Source: an uncultured Alphaproteobacteria bacterium
Lineage (GTDB): Bacteria; Pseudomonadota; Alphaproteobacteria; Rhizobiales; Beijerinckiaceae
Assembly (NCBI GenBank): GCA_963753135.1
Contig: CAVWBA010000021.1
Location: 12,166-76,165 of the forward strand
DNA length: 64,000 bases
Direction: 5' to 3'
Shown: in pieces, positions 9,042 to 15,472 of the stretch
Layout: each line of letters begins with the position of its first letter
Numbering within the stretch: the stretch's first letter is position 1
The notes under the pieces: model-generated
Told to the model about the DNA's origin: nothing
Database searches by the model: none
The model's input: the letters and a program-made list of their open reading frames with translations, nothing else
Position numbers and translations under genes: made by a program

Positions 9042-9510
9042 ATGACCGCAAAGACCCCCGAGGAACGCATCGCGGAACTTGGCCTCGCGCTTCCTCCTCC
9101 CGCCCGCGCGGTCGCGAACTATGTGCCCTGGGTGATCACCGGAAATCTGGTGATGACCTCAGGCAATCTGCCATGGGCAGACGGCAAGCTCGCCTATGTC
9201 GGCAAGATCGGCCGCGAGATTTCCGGGGAGGACGGCTACAAGTCGTGTCAGCTCTCCTGCCTGAACGCGCTCGCGCAGATCAAACAGGCGGTCGGCGAGC
9301 TTGCGAAGGTGAAGCGCATCGTGCGGCTGGAAGGGGTGCTTGGGCGTGGACGACGCCTACAAGGAGCATCCCAAATGCCTCGATGGCGCCTCCGATCTGA
9401 TCAACAACGCGTTCGAAGAGAAGGGCCGCCACACGCGCATGATCTACACCAACCCGGTGATGCCGCTCGACTGCACGTCGCTGGTGGTCCTGTTCGCGGA
9501 GATTGAGTGA
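9042..9510 (+). CDS. RidA/YjgF family protein (+1 frameshift near 9342)
   Basis: LGLALPPP, ANYVP, TSGNLP; the shifted frame continues DGASDL...GRHTR...PLD to TGA at 9508-9510. Confidence 0.85.
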
Positions 9511-9597
9511 GGGGCGGCGGCGTTTCCGTTCGACCGCCTCGACAGACTTCGCGAACGCAGCCCGTCCCGCGAATTGGGCATGCGCGGCTTGCCGAGT

Positions 9598-9612
9598 TAC
9601 CAAATTTTGGTA
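9598..9612. promoter_or_regulatory. Palindromic operator upstream of parD (likely ParD autorepression site)
   Basis: TACCAAA-T-TTTGGTA with perfect 7-bp arms, 21 nt before the parD ATG. Confidence 0.6.
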
Positions 9613-9633
9613 TCTTGAGGAACGTTGAGTCCC

Positions 9634-9885
9634 ATGAGCAAGAACACCTCCGTCAGTCTCGGCGAGCATTTCGCCGACTTCATTGAGGGCCAGGTCGCGA
9701 GCGGCCGCTATGGCTCGGCGAGCGACGTGGTGCGCGCGGGACTGCGCCTTCTGGAGGAACAGGAGACGCGCCTCGCGGCCCTCCGAGCGGCATTGATCGA
9801 AGGCGAGGACAGCGGTCCGCCGGCGCCATTCGATTTCGACGCATTTCTCGCCGCCAAGCGATCCGATGCGCGCCGCGCGCGGTGA
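9634..9885 (+). CDS. parD: ParD family (RHH) antitoxin
   Basis: [39 protein letters not shown]; overlaps parE. Confidence 0.93.
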
Positions 9886-10175
9886 TGCGCCTCGAACTCA
9901 CTCCGAAAGCGCGCCGCGACATTGACGACATCTGGGAGCGCTCCTTCGAGCGCCACGGCGCTGCACAGGCGGAGACCTATATCCGAGGCATCGAACGCGC
10001 GATGCAGACGATCGCTGAGGATCCTCGCCGCGGGCGTCCTTGCGACGAAATTCGCTCTGGCTATCGGAAGTTCGCCGTCGGCTCGCATATGCTGTTCTTC
10101 CGCGTCGCGGATGGAGCGATTGTCATTGTCCGCATCCTGCATCAGCGAATGGATTTCGAGCGTCATTTGACATGA
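9882..10175 (+). CDS. parE: ParE/RelE family toxin
   Basis: [38 protein letters not shown]. Confidence 0.93.
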
Positions 10176-10299
10176 AGCGCAACGGAGAAGGCGCGGCAAA
10201 GGGTTGAGTAAAGCGCCACCGGAATGCCGGTAATGCCACCGGAATGCACCGTAATGCGCACGAGATTGAGTGAAGGCGCGGCTTTTTCGCAGCCGGTTC

Positions 10300-10530
10300 T
10301 CAGTCCGACACGTATCGATGGATCAGCGCGTTGATTAGCGTCTGATAGAGGATCCCTTCCTGCAGCGCCCGCGATTTCAGGCGGACCAGATCACGCTTGG
10401 GGATGCGCAATGAGATTTTGGCGCGCTCGTCAGTCGTGGCCGCGCGCGCCATGGCTTCGATCTCGCGCTTGCGCGTCTCGGTCAATCCGCTTTTGAGCGG
10501 GGCGTCGCCGGTCTCGAAGGCCTCGATCAA
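10300..10530 (-). pseudogene. 5'-truncated CopG/RHH-type antitoxin-like gene
   Basis: KISLRIPKRDLVRLKSRALQEGILYQTLINALIHRYV; begins at LIEAFE directly after the stop of the upstream AT-rich gene, with no RBS. Confidence 0.6.
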
Positions 10531-10533
10531 AGC

Positions 10534-12117
10534 CTATACTGTAATCATAGATGAAGCCCTATCAGCCATCAGTTTAGCGCGAATCTCAAGAAAGCGGCGA
10601 GTGTCGCTTTCTTTCAAGGCCTTCAGCGCGTCCTTGTTGATCAATTGTCGTTCGAGTGAGACCTTACCCGCCGGTGTATCTGCGCAGTCAAAGATTAGCT
10701 CTCTGACAAGTTCTGGCTTAACTGGTAGATCGTCTGGCGAAGCAATAAGCACGTTTGCTGGTATGCGCGCCGACTGCATGCGGCCACGCGCTGAAATGAC
10801 TTCCTGCAATGACAGAATCGGGACGAAATATGCAGCATCGTAAGTTCCCGTTAGCACGGGAGTTGGAATTTCCACATTGAGGCGCAGCGAACGCGGACGG
10901 AGCCCAGCCATCATAGTCACGAAGGCTGTTGTGAGGGCTTTACCTTTGAGCATTCTCCTCCGGATAAAGCGTTCGGAATCGATCTTCGCTATTGGTAGAT
11001 CCAGTCGCCCGTCCTCGATTTGGGATTCAGTCGATTTAATCATTCTTGCAACGAAATTATCGGGACGGCCTTGAAGAGCCTCGTCAAAGCTCACATAAAA
11101 GAACCATGCCCTAAGCGCGGCCTTTTGCTCGATACTTAAAACTTGACGATCTCGAAATATTCTAAAAAGTACAAGCGTCTGCCCTTCATATGGAATAAAA
11201 TCGCTAGAAAATATTGATAGCTCTTCTCTCAAAAAGCCAAATACTCGTTGGAAGACGTTGACGACATCGACAACAGCATTGTTAAGCGACTTGGCCGGCT
11301 TCTGCCGCAGCGCTAGGAGGACGTCGGGTAGCGGGTCAAGATCATATATCAAACCCAGCGCCTTCACGATGGTGTCGTCAGTCAACTCAAAATCCTGAAC
11401 TTCAAGTCCTTCTCTAATTGTATCGAGAGCCTGATTTAGATCAAAGTGCTCTGACCAGGTAATTGCACGCATGAAGTCCACTCAACTTAAGCGAGTTCCA
11501 GTTGAATTCACACGCTCAAAGATAACCACTACCTCCTCCAAATTACGCTGGGCAAGCGTCACTAAAGGTATCATATATTCTTGGAATTGGCCCTGGAGAT
11601 CGGTTAATTTGGAAAGATTATCGTCCCCAAGACCGCTATCAATTAATGTGCGTTGTACTTCTAGGAGACGACGAGGATTGAATACGGCGTTAAGCGGCAC
11701 CGCCGTGACTGCGTTTCTAACTTCAGAGGAGTGTATGAAGCGTCCATCTACGATGTCAAATGCAACATCAAATATATTCTCATCGTTTTTGTCTTTATAG
11801 TGGAAGACACCGTACAACGACGAAAGTCGCTGAAGACCGTCTAGTACGTAACTTAGTGGAAACTCAGGCTTGCTTTTCGGGAATGGTATTTCAGGCGAAT
11901 TGCTCAGCCGTAGGAAGTCGTGGTCGACGGCCCATAGCAACAAACTCCCGATCGGATACCCTTTATAGACGCTTTCCAAAAGTTCAATTACGTTGTCTAG
12001 CTCCCAGACGAACGTGCGTTGGAAGGCGGGTACAACAATTTTTCCACTGTCGATCCGTCGAAATATCGTTGTCAGATGCTCAACAGAAGGCTGTGGCGGA
12101 AAGGCGCTGCGTGTCAT
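10534..12117 (-). CDS. DUF262 (GmrSD N-terminal, ParB-like) protein interrupted by an in-frame TGA at 11482-11484
   Basis: PAFQRTFVW, GYPIGSLLLW, VLDGLQRLSSL, FERVNSTGTRLS; the frame continues TGA-VDFMRA into the 315-aa C-terminal ORF; 1584 nt is an exact codon multiple. Confidence 0.85.
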
Positions 12118-12926
12118 GCCCGTGCGGCTCCTGAACCTTGTACACCTTTATCGCCGTCGCTGTCGGCATCCTGTGCGAGACGAAGCTCTAAAATCATCGC
12201 GTCAACGAGATGTAACGTATGGCCGAGGTACTCGGCTCGAAATCGAGGTGACCGATAATCCCAGCGCGCTTGGGAGCGGGCGGTCGACACTGCTCCGCGA
12301 TCCTGCTCGTAAAATTTGTGAGTTAACTCTCGTAGAGCTGCCTGCAACTGCGTAGTTGCCTGGAACTCGACCGAAAGCGAAACGTCTATAACCTTATCTG
12401 CTACAATAACTTGCGCAGGCATTCCGATGTAAGTGTGCCAAGCATAATAGCCAACGTCCGTCGCCTTGGGGGCGGTATCCCCTTTTAGTCCTACGTCGTT
12501 GGCTGCTGCGATAATTTCCTGGGATACGCGTTCGGGCCCGTCCAGGTATCTGCAAATCAGCATTGTGCGTATGAGATCATCGACTATGCCGAACGAAGTC
12601 GAGTAAGTAATCCACCCTTCTCGTGGGTTTTTTGGCCATGAGCGATTCCAAAGGCAATTGAGTCGGAAGAGCTTGTTGGCGAAAGATGCAAAGCTTTTCT
12701 TTCTGAGTACCAGCTCCGGCGCTTTGGAGCTTTCTTGGAATACGCCACTGTCCGTCAGCACTGTCAGCCGTTTTGCAAGTACGTCCATAAATTGATGCGA
12801 ATTGACGGTATTGTGTAAAACGGTAATATTGGCTTCAAATTTCGATGACAATTCCTGACTGGTAAGATCATCGCCCAGTTGTTCTTTATGCCACCCGAGG
12901 TATTCCTCGAACGAGGGCTTATCCAC
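12114..12926 (-). CDS. RelA/SpoT-like (small alarmone synthetase-type) nucleotidyltransferase
   Basis: RxKxxxSxxxK (R75-K85), DD116-117, GYYAWH, EFQ, H203xxY in SAS order; 4-nt overlap with the DUF262 gene. Confidence 0.7.
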   Translation of the reverse strand: MDKPSFEEYLGWHKEQLGDDLTSQELSSKFEANITVLHNTVNSHQFMDVLAKRLTVLTDSGVFQESSKAPELVLRKKSFASFANKLFRLNCLWNRSWPKNPREGWITYSTSFGIVDDLIRTMLICRYLDGPERVSQEIIAAANDVGLKGDTAPKATDVGYYAWHTYIGMPAQVIVADKVIDVSLSVEFQATTQLQAALRELTHKFYEQDRGAVSTARSQARWDYRSPRFRAEYLGHTLHLVDAMILELRLAQDADSDGDKGVQGSGAARA

Positions 12927-12984
12927 AGGAGAACCCCTAGGTTGTTCAGCGCCTGCTACGTACGCGCGTAGAGGCGGTTATTGC

Positions 12985-14723
<1,739 letters not shown>

Positions 14724-14765: not shown

Positions 14766-15161
14766 CTAGGTTTTGAGCAAGCGGAAACCTGGGGACTCGG
14801 CCGCTTCCCGGTCGAACGTCAGCGTCGTCTCGCAACCGGCGTCGAGATTGAGCGCCGCGATCAATCGGTCCGCGAAGAGATGGATCCCGGTGTTGGAATC
14901 GGTAATGGCCTCGAGGACGCTGGCTCGGTGCTGGATCGCGAGCGCGGGATGGCGGACGATTCGGGTCAGCGCGTGGCGAATCCAGTCGTCTTCCCATTTG
15001 TAGGCGCGCCGCATGGTCCATGCGAATTCGGCGAGCACGACGACATTGACGAAGATTTGGCCCGCTTTGCTCTCGTCAAGCACGCGGATGGCGCTCGCCG
15101 CCTGCTGCGCATCGTCGCTCGCGAAGATGCGGACGAGGACGTTTGTGTCGAGGCCAATCAT
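14766..15161 (-). CDS. vapC: VapC PIN-domain toxin
   Basis: GLDTNVLVR, VVLAE, FADRLI, LTFDR acidic PIN tetrad. Confidence 0.92.
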   Translation of the reverse strand: MIGLDTNVLVRIFASDDAQQAASAIRVLDESKAGQIFVNVVVLAEFAWTMRRAYKWEDDWIRHALTRIVRHPALAIQHRASVLEAITDSNTGIHLFADRLIAALNLDAGCETTLTFDREAAESPGFRLLKT

Positions 15162-15472
15162 TCGGCGGCGGTCCGCCTGGGCCTGGGTCGCCGAGGGGAG
15201 GCCTGTCGTCGAATTCTGCGATCGTCTTCGACAAGCGCATCGCCGACGGCCTGGTCCATCTCACGGATCGAAATAGGAGGCGATCGAACTTCGGTCTCGT
15301 ACATACCTGTCCAATCTTTCGCCTTTCCGGTGATGGCGTGAAAGAACACGTCGCCTTCGAGCGAGAGGTAAAACTCGACCTCGCAGCCCTCGGCGATCTT
15401 CAGCTTCTTGCGCAGGGGCGCGGGCAACGTGATAATCCCGTCAGCCCCAACGGTCGTTCGATAGTGTGGCAT
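15158..15472 (-). CDS. vapB: AbrB/MazE-type VapB antitoxin
   Basis: TVGADGIITLPAPLRKKLKIAEGCEVEF; 4-nt overlap with vapC. Confidence 0.88.
   Translation of the reverse strand: MPHYRTTVGADGIITLPAPLRKKLKIAEGCEVEFYLSLEGDVFFHAITGKAKDWTGMYETEVRSPPISIREMDQAVGDALVEDDRRIRRQASPRRPRPRRTAAE

What the first reader, a model, noticed from the sequence alone, without database searches (positions are those of the whole stretch)
10534..12926. Candidate new defence module: alarmone-synthetase-like nucleotidyltransferase coupled to a nuclease-less DUF262 protein
Seen: two co-oriented genes with a 4-nt overlap in an AT-rich patch (hand-counted 60-nt lines at 11101 and 11161: 45% and 33% GC, versus 72% at 13141 in ureC), flanked by TA genes. 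Established: toxic small alarmone synthetases (ppApp producers, tRNA pyrophosphokinases such as CapRel) act in anti-phage TA systems, and DUF262 is a ParB/sulfiredoxin-fold NTP-binding domain used in GmrSD and SspE defence. I do not recognise this pairing as a named system. Inference: a nucleotide-signal or toxin/antidote module in which DUF262 senses, hydrolyses or is regulated by the SAS product or modified phage DNA.
Basis: partly seen in the sequence, partly recalled or inferred. Interest (0 to 1): 0.88.

Follow-up and report, generated by a model that had tools for sequence, protein, structure and literature searches.

The report
Alarmone-synthetase-like enzyme paired with nuclease-less DUF262
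A horizontally acquired two-gene cassette pairs a divergent relative of bacterial alarm-nucleotide synthetases with a ParB-like DUF262 protein that has lost its nuclease; the pairing is fixed across many phyla, matches no named system, and is most likely an untested toxin-type or anti-phage module whose second gene carries a premature stop in this genome.

Summary
On the minus strand, a 270-aa gene (12114-12926) overlaps by ATGA a DUF262 gene (10534-12117). Both lie in a 49% GC islet in a 64% GC genome, directly downstream of ureC and among ParDE, VapBC and a BrnA-like remnant.

The 270-aa protein has the RelA/SpoT small-alarmone-synthetase fold with all core catalytic motifs, although Pfam does not detect it.

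The DUF262 protein is BrxU/GmrSD-like, but its C-terminal nuclease motif is degenerate (Phe where the catalytic His should be). A single in-frame TGA interrupts it at codon 212, where intact relatives have Arg.

Of 74 related loci, 31 carry DUF262 directly downstream (about 530 aa or about 221 aa). In a sister clade, 42 of 43 carry an unrelated ~147-aa protein; the remaining contig ends at the stop codon. In Vibrio parahaemolyticus the pair is one integron cassette.

PADLOC, Pfam, NCBIfam and the literature name no such pair. PDC-M55 and PD-T4-2 reuse related DUF262 proteins with other partners.

Best reading: a toxSAS-type effector controlled by a DUF262 switch, acting as a TA-like or abortive-infection module. 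No function has been tested.

This scan has already noted DUF262/RelA-SpoT pairs on other genomes, described there with DUF262 named first.

The parts
12114..12926 (-). SAS-like gene (270 aa): a divergent RelA/SpoT-fold pyrophosphokinase with a GTG start and an AGGGG Shine-Dalgarno at 12934-12938
   Evidence: ORF. AF2 model with pLDDT 92. The top 43 Foldseek PDB hits are all SAS/toxSAS, led by RelP 6ewz at E=3.5e-10. The family profile hits RelP 6fgk at E=1.3e-7 and RelQ at 5.6e-5. Invariant residues are K77, S81, K85, R88, D117, R120, G159-Y160-Y161, H164, E187 and Q189. dN/dS is 0.067 against L075.
12114..12117 (-). ATGA stop/start overlap coupling the two genes
   Evidence: Sequence. Comparable 1-14 nt overlaps or gaps of a few nt occur in most related loci.
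11485..12117 (-). DUF262 (GmrSD_N, ParB/Srx-fold) domain, codons 1-211
   Evidence: Pfam PF03235 at E=3e-25. PADLOC PDC-M55C at 8.9e-39 and NsnA at 2.4e-11. Invariant PAFQR and DGLQR motifs. BrxU 7p9k by sequence at 2.2e-18.
11482..11484 (-). In-frame TGA at codon 212 of the DUF262 gene
   Evidence: Relatives have mostly Arg here, others Ala, Thr, Ser, Val or Lys; the codon is CGG in L079 and L076. Close homologues are intact at 527-529 aa and 85%/79% identity. The genome search flags '1 TGA'.
10534..11481 (-). C-terminal 315 codons of the DUF262 protein: a helical region plus a degenerate DUF1524-like remnant with no catalytic His
   Evidence: PDC-M55C profile positions 235-533 at E=5.7e-15. 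No Pfam hit. The whole-protein model (pLDDT 88.6) matches BrxU 7p9m at E=2.8e-11 and DndI 9jfl at 5.7e-4. Position 431 is F in 39 of 55 sequences and never His; S449, K/R451 and N455 are conserved. dN/dS is 0.10 against L079, so there is no sign of decay.
10474..12984 (.). Low-GC accessory islet carrying the module, inserted downstream of ureC
   Evidence: Composition. No match in 12 same-genus genomes. Only 3 of 151 family genomes carry the SAS-like gene. The same ureC-SAS-DUF262 arrangement occurs on metagenome contig L075 at 93% nt identity.
10300..10530 (-). CopG/BrnA-like antitoxin ORF, probably a 5'-truncated orphan, starting 3 nt after the DUF262 stop
   Evidence: Pfam CopG_antitoxin at 6.8e-5, below the curated cutoff. 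Only 10304-10473 matches the copies in relatives. Sequence.
9625..10175 (+). ParD-ParE toxin-antitoxin pair (context)
   Evidence: Pfam ParD_antitoxin at 2.5e-38 and ParE_toxin at 9.1e-23.

Best explanation
The pair is a mobile two-gene conflict module of the toxSAS type.

Shown:
- The upstream gene encodes a catalytically complete RelA/SpoT-fold pyrophosphokinase.
- The downstream gene is translationally coupled to it and encodes a ParB-fold DUF262 NTP/DNA-switch protein whose GmrSD-type nuclease has degenerated.
- The two genes are inherited, transferred and selected as a unit.

Inferred:
- The SAS-like enzyme is the growth-arresting effector. It would transfer pyrophosphate from ATP to a nucleotide (ppGpp/ppApp type) or to tRNA 3' ends.
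- The DUF262 protein is its cognate controller. It either holds the enzyme inactive until infection or stress (TA-like, slightly favoured) or licenses it after sensing DNA or NTP changes (PANGU-like).
- The DUF262 domain alone appears sufficient as partner, because a whole subclade has only that domain (~221 aa).

In this genome the long DUF262 gene carries a premature TGA at codon 212. That position is about 13 residues before the point where the natural short forms end. The local copy is therefore either recently damaged, reduced to a near-short form, or mis-assembled.
For: Fold and motifs.

Fixed partnership: 31 of 31 clade-A loci have DUF262 directly downstream. 42 of 43 clade-B loci have the ~147-aa partner, and the one exception ends at the contig edge. 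All 5 long-DUF262 homologues checked by context have the SAS gene upstream.

Partner swapping: the split between the two SAS clades has SH-aLRT 99, and the short DUF262 forms are nested within the long ones.

Mobility: the pair is exactly one integron cassette in V. parahaemolyticus. It is sporadic, found in 3 of 151 family genomes, and bacteria and archaea are intermixed in the tree. It sits on a low-GC islet. Some neighbours are Eco57I-type R-M genes, PIN or CcdAB TA genes. A distant homologue with a small partner lies in the rep-parM region of conjugative plasmids.

Selection: dN/dS is 0.03-0.10 on all three parts.

Natural knock-outs: the SAS gene is split by an IS or a frameshift while the partner stays intact in L077, L068 and L065. 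No assessable locus has an intact SAS gene with the partner absent.

Precedents: toxSAS TA systems in conserved, often overlapping bicistrons (PMC7229694). PANGU type I, a DNA-binding sensor plus toxSAS (bioRxiv 10.64898/2026.04.06.716658). Nuclease-less DUF262 proteins in validated defence systems, namely PD-T4-2 (PMC9519451) and TgvA (PMC12409362).
Against: No toxicity, phage or biochemical data exist for any family member.

The window's SAS protein is not detected by Pfam RelA_SpoT, NCBIfam or any PADLOC model. Its acceptor substrate cannot be inferred. RelQ's adenine-stacking Arg position (R75 here) is not conserved in the family, and the Arg of the EIQIRT motif is Thr.

Genomic contexts are mixed; for example, the pair lies between thiC and a RidA gene in Bradyrhizobium. 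Defence-island enrichment was not quantified.

If DUF262 were an essential antitoxin, a stop at codon 212 with an intact SAS gene would need the fragment to remain functional. The PANGU-like activator variant copes with this more easily.
Confidence: 0.55

Rival explanations
1. Signal and receptor. The SAS-like enzyme makes a nucleotide second messenger, and DUF262 is its receptor or effector, as in CBASS.
For: DUF262 is an NTP-binding ParB/Srx fold with invariant PAFQR and DGLQR motifs. SAS enzymes make signalling nucleotides.
Against: The short DUF262 forms (~221 aa) and the long form both lack a recognisable killing domain. The sister clade replaces DUF262 with an unrelated 147-aa protein that has only four invariant residues. 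A constitutive synthetase would also need its own sensor, and the 270-aa protein has no evident sensor domain.
Confidence: 0.12
2. Enzymatic antidote (type IV antitoxin-like). The DUF262 NTPase hydrolyses the toxic SAS product, as SAH antitoxins do.
For: DUF262 domains of BrxU bind and hydrolyse NTPs (PMC12409362). The nucleotide-binding motifs are invariant. The SAH antitoxin ATfaRel is a precedent (PMC7229694).
Against: The ~147-aa partner of the sister clade shows no enzyme-like homology. No ParB-fold enzyme known to me acts on 3'-pyrophosphorylated nucleotides.
Confidence: 0.1
3. In this genome the module is a dead remnant, or the stop is an assembly error. Under the second the gene is really intact.
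For: A TGA stands where relatives have Arg. The neighbouring ureC and the RidA-like gene carry frameshifts relative to relatives. That suggests either a pseudogene-rich region or an error-prone assembly.
Against: The sequence after the stop shows no decay: dN/dS is 0.10 with no further stops or indels over 315 codons. The SAS gene keeps every invariant residue. The break is a substitution, whereas the other defects nearby are indels. This rival concerns the local copy only, not what the family does.
Confidence: 0.15
4. A non-conflict role, for example a stress-signalling SAS with a DNA-bound regulator, or a nucleotide- or DNA-modification function.
For: RelP and RelQ, the closest solved structures, are non-toxic housekeeping SAS enzymes (PMC7229694). 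Some contexts are ordinary metabolic neighbourhoods.
Against: The distribution is sporadic, horizontally transferred and borne on an integron cassette, with partner swapping. The pair is missing from 12 congeners.
Confidence: 0.08

Closest known systems
toxSAS toxin-antitoxin modules (FaRel, FaRel2, PhRel, PhRel2, CapRel; Jimmy et al. 2020, PMC7229694; PMC11782079)
   Same: A single-domain RelA/SpoT-fold synthetase sits in a conserved, overlapping bicistron with a swappable partner. Distribution is mobile and sporadic. CapRel 7ztb and FaRel2 8pu3 are among the fold hits.
   Different: The sequence family is different: Pfam RelA_SpoT does not detect the window protein, and RelP/RelQ score better than CapRel/FaRel2. 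The protein carries an extra N-terminal three-helix unit and a long C-terminal helix. The partners, DUF262 or the 147-aa protein, are not among the described antitoxins; neither the toxSAS paper nor the NetFlax paper mentions DUF262. Toxicity is untested.
PANGU type I (Pag1A YejK-like nucleoid protein plus Pag1B GRel toxSAS; bioRxiv 10.64898/2026.04.06.716658)
   Same: A two-gene operon pairing a DNA-associated protein with a SAS effector. It shows that a partner can activate a toxSAS rather than neutralise it, which would explain why a DUF262 stop is tolerated.
   Different: The sensor here is ParB-fold DUF262, not YejK-like. This SAS has no acidic DNA-mimic C-terminal domain. No evidence was obtained for DNA binding, tetramers or pppGpp synthesis.
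GmrSD-family type IV restriction enzymes (BrxU 7P9K/7P9M, SspE, Eco94GmrSD) and DndI
   Same: The DUF262 protein is their homologue over its whole length, with the NTP-binding motifs conserved.
   Different: The DUF1524 His-Me nuclease is degenerate, with Phe in place of the catalytic His and no Pfam hit. A subclade lacks the C-terminal half altogether. The putative effector is a separate pyrophosphokinase gene.
PD-T4-2 (Vassallo et al. 2022, PMC9519451) and TgvAB/GrwAB (PMC12409362)
   Same: These are validated defence systems that use a nuclease-less DUF262 protein together with a separate partner protein.
   Different: The PD-T4-2 partner is a ~170-aa protein that is weakly HEPN_RiboL-PSP-like and lies downstream of DUF262. 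TgvA pairs with a DUF262-DUF1524 nuclease. Neither has a SAS-like gene. PD-T4-2_A matches the window protein only at 1.1e-6 over 43 residues.
PADLOC candidate PDC-M55
   Same: Its C component is a related long, nuclease-less DUF262 protein. Both halves of the window protein match the model.
   Different: True PDC-M55 loci score 1e-109 to 1e-125 and carry an AAA_15/AAA_21-DUF3696 ATPase and a ~300-330-aa protein upstream, with no SAS-like gene. It is a candidate only and is not mentioned in the searchable literature.

Membership tests
RelA/SpoT homologue synthetase (SAS) superfamily | Synthetase-domain fold (alpha/beta nucleotidyltransferase core) | tested here: met
   AF2 model with pLDDT 92 and pTM 0.86. 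Foldseek PDB ranks 1-43 are all SAS or toxSAS. The viral library returns RelA/SpoT and Tas1-like proteins.
RelA/SpoT homologue synthetase (SAS) superfamily | Catalytic acidic residues (RelQ D72 and E139) and the G-loop GYxxxH Tyr | tested here: met
   In the profile alignment to RelQ and RelP, D117 aligns with D72, Y160 with Y116, and E187-x-Q189 with E139-x-Q141. All are invariant in 51 sequences.
RelA/SpoT homologue synthetase (SAS) superfamily | Basic ATP-phosphate motif K-x3-S-x3-K-x2-R | tested here: met
   K77, S81, K85 and R88 are invariant and align to RelP VKSFESIVNKLMR. The Arg two residues before K77 is present in the window protein (R75) but is not conserved in the family.
RelA/SpoT homologue synthetase (SAS) superfamily | Match to Pfam RelA_SpoT (PF04607) at the gathering score | tested here: not met
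   The window protein gives no hit even at E<=0.1. Only 4 of 51 family members hit, best E=0.0014. A distant plasmid homologue does pass, at 29.2 bits against a cutoff of 27.
RelA/SpoT homologue synthetase (SAS) superfamily | Pyrophosphate transfer from ATP to GDP/GTP, ADP/ATP or tRNA | not testable with these tools
   Needs enzyme assays or LC-MS.
toxSAS toxin-antitoxin system | Conserved bicistronic arrangement with a cognate partner | tested here: met
   73 of 74 loci have a partner directly downstream; the exception ends at a contig edge.
toxSAS toxin-antitoxin system | SAS toxicity that depends on the active site and is neutralised by the partner | not testable with these tools
   The only indirect evidence is that three loci have a broken SAS gene with an intact partner, and none has an intact SAS gene with the partner absent.
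toxSAS toxin-antitoxin system | Membership of a validated toxSAS subfamily (FaRel, FaRel2, PhRel, PhRel2, CapRel) | tested here: inconclusive
   CapRel (2.2e-4) and FaRel2 (1.4e-3) are weaker fold hits than RelP and RelQ. The RSH subfamily HMMs were not available.
GmrSD / type IV restriction (DUF262 + DUF1524) | N-terminal DUF262 domain with a DGQQR-type motif | tested here: met
   PF03235 at 3e-25. D93, G94, Q96 and R97 are invariant. BrxU by sequence and by fold.
GmrSD / type IV restriction (DUF262 + DUF1524) | C-terminal DUF1524 His-Me finger nuclease with a catalytic His | tested here: not met
   No Pfam hit on residues 213-527. No invariant His. The position equivalent to the motif His holds F, Y, L, I or M, while the downstream Asn (N455) is retained (the motif assignment is my inference).
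PADLOC PDC-M55 | The three genes A (AAA ATPase), B and C (DUF262) together | tested here: not met
   Only C matches, and at paralogue level. The gene upstream in the window is SAS-like, not an ATPase. True M55 loci lack the SAS gene.
PD-T4-2 | A ~377-aa DUF262 protein followed by a ~170-aa partner | tested here: not met
   The A model matches at 1.1e-6 over 43 residues only. No homologue of the small partner is present, and the gene order is the opposite.
PANGU type I | A YejK-like nucleoid-associated sensor plus a GRel toxSAS with a DNA-mimic domain | tested here: not met
   The partner is DUF262, not YejK-like. The SAS model has no C-terminal acidic domain. The comparison is by analogy only.

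The most novel reading that the evidence does not exclude
A type-IV-restriction-style sensor (a GmrSD-family DUF262 NTP/DNA switch) has given up its nuclease and instead gates a separately encoded pyrophosphokinase. Detection of foreign or modified DNA, or of NTP perturbation, would then be converted into alarmone or tRNA-based growth arrest. The same previously unclassified SAS clade, with an alternative 147-aa partner, would extend toxSAS-like modules into archaea (Methanosarcinales, Bathyarchaeia, ANME-1, Thaumarchaeota).
Probability: 0.3. Interest if true: 0.8.

Novelty: new variant of a known kind. Interest (0 to 1): 0.62.

Why it matters
If confirmed, the family would add a new clade of SAS-type effectors: 733 clusters at 50% identity, spanning bacteria and archaea. 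It would also add two new partner classes to the toxSAS and defence repertoire.

It would show that the DUF262 sensor of GmrSD/BrxU/SspE is a portable control module. That module can be wired to non-nuclease effectors: a SAS here, an ATPase set in PDC-M55, and a HEPN-like protein in PD-T4-2.

The natural long, short and 147-aa partner series, together with the integron-cassette form, gives ready-made constructs. These could test what the partner senses and whether it inhibits or activates the enzyme.

Tried and rejected
- Sequence libraries found nothing for the SAS-like protein: Pfam, NCBIfam, PADLOC, PHROGs and single-sequence PDB search. Only the family profile and the fold search were informative.
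- PDC-M55 membership was rejected, because true loci have ATPase and unknown-protein partners.
- PD-T4-2 membership was rejected.
- Recoding or selenocysteine at the TGA was rejected. Relatives have ordinary Arg, Ala, Thr, Ser, Val or Lys codons there, and close homologues are plain 527-529-aa ORFs.
- P0177 was considered as a second natural split of the DUF262 gene and rejected, because it starts 36 nt from a contig end.
- The ~147-aa partner has no Pfam, PDB-profile or PADLOC homology and no similarity to DUF262.
- The phage collection holds no homologue.
- Literature searches for DUF262 with alarmone, RelA SpoT, PDC-M55, GmrSD with alarmone synthetase, and ParB with RelA SpoT found no description of the pair.
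- Getz et al. 2025, which tested V. parahaemolyticus integron cassettes, is not in the library. I could not check whether this cassette was among those tested.
Full report
**Anatomy**

All the relevant genes lie on the minus strand. From upstream to downstream they are:
- ureC at 12985-14723, which is frameshifted.
- A 58-nt spacer with an AGGGG Shine-Dalgarno.
- A 270-aa ORF at 12114-12926 with a GTG start.
- A DUF262 ORF that starts in the ATGA overlap at 12117.

The DUF262 frame runs for 527 codons to 10534. It is interrupted once, by TGA at 11482-11484 (codon 212).

A CopG/BrnA-like ORF follows 3 nt later, at 10300-10530. ParDE lies at 9625-10175 on the plus strand, and VapBC lies beyond ureC at 14766-15472.

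GC content falls to 43-53% over the pair, against 62-70% on both sides. The module is 48.8% GC and the genome 63.6%.

**The region is accessory**

Twelve same-genus genomes carry ureC at 71-93% identity, but none matches window 9511-12983. Only 3 of 151 genomes of the family have a match to the SAS-like profile.

A metagenome contig, L075, has the same ureC-SAS-DUF262 arrangement at 93% nucleotide identity. The insertion therefore predates that divergence (dS about 0.3), and it has been under strong purifying selection since. dN/dS is 0.067 for the SAS gene. Against L079 it is 0.034 for the DUF262 N-terminal part and 0.10 for the C-terminal part.

**The 270-aa protein**

Single-sequence searches of Pfam, NCBIfam, PADLOC, PHROGs and PDB gave nothing.

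A search of 5.8 billion proteins returned 86 homologues, many labelled by JGI as ppGpp synthetase/RelA/SpoT-type. A profile of 51 of them (alignment A1) matched RelP (6fgk, E=1.3e-7) and RelQ (5.6e-5).

That alignment places the invariant residues on known functional positions:
- D117 on RelQ D72.
- G159-Y160-Y161-x-x-H164 on the G-loop GYRSYH.
- E187-x-Q189 on EIQ.
- K77-x3-S81-x3-K85-x2-R88 on the ATP-phosphate motif.

AlphaFold2 with this alignment gave pLDDT 92. The first 43 Foldseek hits in the PDB are all small alarmone synthetases or toxSAS: RelP at 3.5e-10, then RelQ, an exported Streptomyces SAS, CapRel and FaRel2. Viral hits are RelA/SpoT and Tas1-like proteins.

The fold and the catalytic core are therefore established. 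The product and the acceptor are not. Two positions differ from the housekeeping SAS enzymes: the Arg of EIQIRT is Thr, and the adenine-stacking Arg position is not conserved.

Against 1.84 billion cluster representatives, the profile finds 733 clusters at E<=1e-3 and 346 at E<=1e-30. Nearly all are single-domain proteins of about 260-280 aa.

**The DUF262 protein**

Residues 16-211 match Pfam GmrSD_N at 3e-25. Both halves match the PADLOC model PDC-M55C, at 8.9e-39 and 5.7e-15.

With the TGA read through, the protein has many intact homologues of about 530 aa. The closest are 85% and 79% identical.

A 55-sequence alignment shows invariant PAFQR and DGLQR motifs. The profile hits BrxU at 2.2e-18. 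The AF2 model (pLDDT 88.6) matches BrxU at 2.8e-11 and DndI at 5.7e-4, with weak matches to ParB and Noc.

The C-terminal half has no Pfam DUF1524 hit. Its best-conserved stretch, F-x-P-I ... S-x-K/R-x-x-A-N, resembles the DUF1524 (D/E)H-x-x-P ... N-L-x-L-L motif. However, Phe, Tyr, Leu, Ile or Met stands where the catalytic His would be; Phe accounts for 39 of 55 sequences and His for none. The motif assignment is my inference. 'Nuclease-less' is therefore supported.

**The stop codon**

At codon 212 relatives have mostly Arg, with Ala, Thr, Ser, Val or Lys in others. The codon is CGG in the two closest DNA-level relatives.

The 315 codons after the stop have no further defects and a dN/dS of 0.10. 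The change is therefore recent, harmless or artefactual.

The neighbouring ureC has indels relative to four congeners, and the RidA-like gene also appears frameshifted.

Natural short DUF262 partners end only about 13 residues after this position.

**Conservation of the pairing**

A scan of one genome per GTDB species found 68 loci. I analysed these together with the loci fetched by identity.
- Every member of the SAS clade that contains the window has a DUF262 gene directly downstream, usually overlapping. That is 31 loci, either about 530 aa or about 221 aa.
- All 5 long-DUF262 homologues examined starting from the DUF262 side have the SAS gene upstream. In Stutzerimonas stutzeri ATCC 14405 that SAS gene is split by an IS element.
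- The sister SAS clade includes many archaea. It carries instead a conserved ~147-aa protein with no detectable homology, in 42 of 43 loci. The exception ends at the contig edge.

In the tree, the two clades separate with SH-aLRT 99. Short DUF262 forms are nested inside long forms, and host phyla are intermixed.

In V. parahaemolyticus the pair is bounded exactly by attC-like repeats, so it forms a single integron cassette. Some other loci sit next to Eco57I-type R-M genes or TA pairs.

Conjugative Proteus and Providencia plasmids carry a distant homologue that passes Pfam RelA_SpoT. It has a 120-aa upstream partner and lies between rep and parM.

**Comparison with named systems**

No PADLOC model matches any of 51 SAS-family members significantly.

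True PDC-M55 loci score 1e-109 to 1e-125 on the C model. They have an AAA_15/AAA_21-DUF3696 ATPase and a ~300-330-aa protein upstream, and no SAS gene.

PD-T4-2 is a 377-aa nuclease-less DUF262 protein followed by a ~170-aa protein that is weakly HEPN_RiboL-PSP-like. Its defence role is validated in its native host (PMC9519451).

TgvAB and GrwAB also use a nuclease-less DUF262 protein (PMC12409362).

The toxSAS and NetFlax papers do not mention DUF262. Full-text searches found no description of the pair.

PANGU type I pairs a DNA-bound sensor with a toxSAS that the sensor activates. I reached this lead through earlier notes of this scan. Those notes record DUF262/RelA-SpoT pairs in at least 10 other genomes, described there with DUF262 named first. 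The by-sequence look-up, which only detects fairly close matches (about 60-70% protein identity), linked none of them to this window.

**Mechanism**

Shown: a catalytically complete SAS-fold enzyme and a ParB-fold switch protein without a nuclease are co-inherited, translationally coupled, mobile and under purifying selection.

Inferred: the SAS is the effector and the partner is its controller. Three observations favour direct protein-protein control over dedicated product chemistry:
- Unrelated partners are interchanged.
- The bare DUF262 domain suffices as partner in one subclade.
- SAS-broken, partner-intact loci exist, while the converse does not.

Whether the partner inhibits (TA-like) or licenses (PANGU-like) cannot be decided here. 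The stop in DUF262 alongside an intact SAS gene fits licensing, or a still-functional N-terminal fragment.

**Verdict**

I classify the finding as a new variant of known kinds (toxSAS modules and DUF262-sensor defence systems), with interest 0.62.

Noticed in passing
window 12985-14723 (-): ureC is broken into three reading frames. Against four same-genus genomes the window has an extra base near 13991-13997 and indels near 13515-13538. Metagenome contig L075 (93% identity) has the 3' part in one ORF. A second, 68%-identical ureC copy lies on contig C26 of the same genome.
   Followed up: partly
window 9042-9510 (+): The RidA/YjgF-like gene appears frameshifted. The Pfam match stops at profile position 95 of 148, and the expected C-terminus lies in an overlapping ORF at 9340-9510. 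With ureC, this points either to an error-prone assembly or to local pseudogenisation.
   Followed up: partly
window 10300-10530 (-): A CopG/BrnA-like antitoxin ORF has no BrnT toxin and starts 3 nt after the DUF262 stop. Only 10304-10473 matches the copies in congeners. It is probably a 5'-truncated orphan left by insertion of the low-GC module.
   Followed up: partly
window 14766-15472 (-): A VapB (MazE-like) and VapC (PIN) pair sits between ureAB and ureC. Among the sampled congeners, only one (G004) aligns through this stretch.
   Followed up: partly
L004 5842-7600 (V. parahaemolyticus chromosome): The SAS gene plus the short DUF262 gene form exactly one integron cassette between attC-like repeats, in an array that also carries CcdAB and acetyltransferase cassettes.
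   Followed up: yes
L077 2978-5001 (Stutzerimonas stutzeri ATCC 14405): The SAS-like gene is split by a DDE transposase insertion, while the downstream long DUF262 gene is intact.
   Followed up: yes
L029-L074 (clade-B loci, e.g. L036 827-1270): A conserved ~147-aa protein has only Y8, S107, N129 and C130 invariant (an ENCD motif) and no detectable homology. It always lies directly downstream of clade-B SAS-like genes, in many archaea and bacteria.
   Followed up: partly
L089-L094, L102: PADLOC candidate PDC-M55 resolves to an AAA_15/AAA_21-DUF3696 ATPase, a ~300-330-aa unknown protein and a long nuclease-less DUF262 protein.
   Followed up: partly
L109 3605-4768 (Proteus mirabilis plasmid pPM14-NDM_123k): A distant SAS-like gene (24% identity, passes Pfam RelA_SpoT) follows a 120-aa ORF 4 nt upstream, between the replication and parM partition genes of a conjugative plasmid. 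This is an addiction-module-like position.
   Followed up: partly
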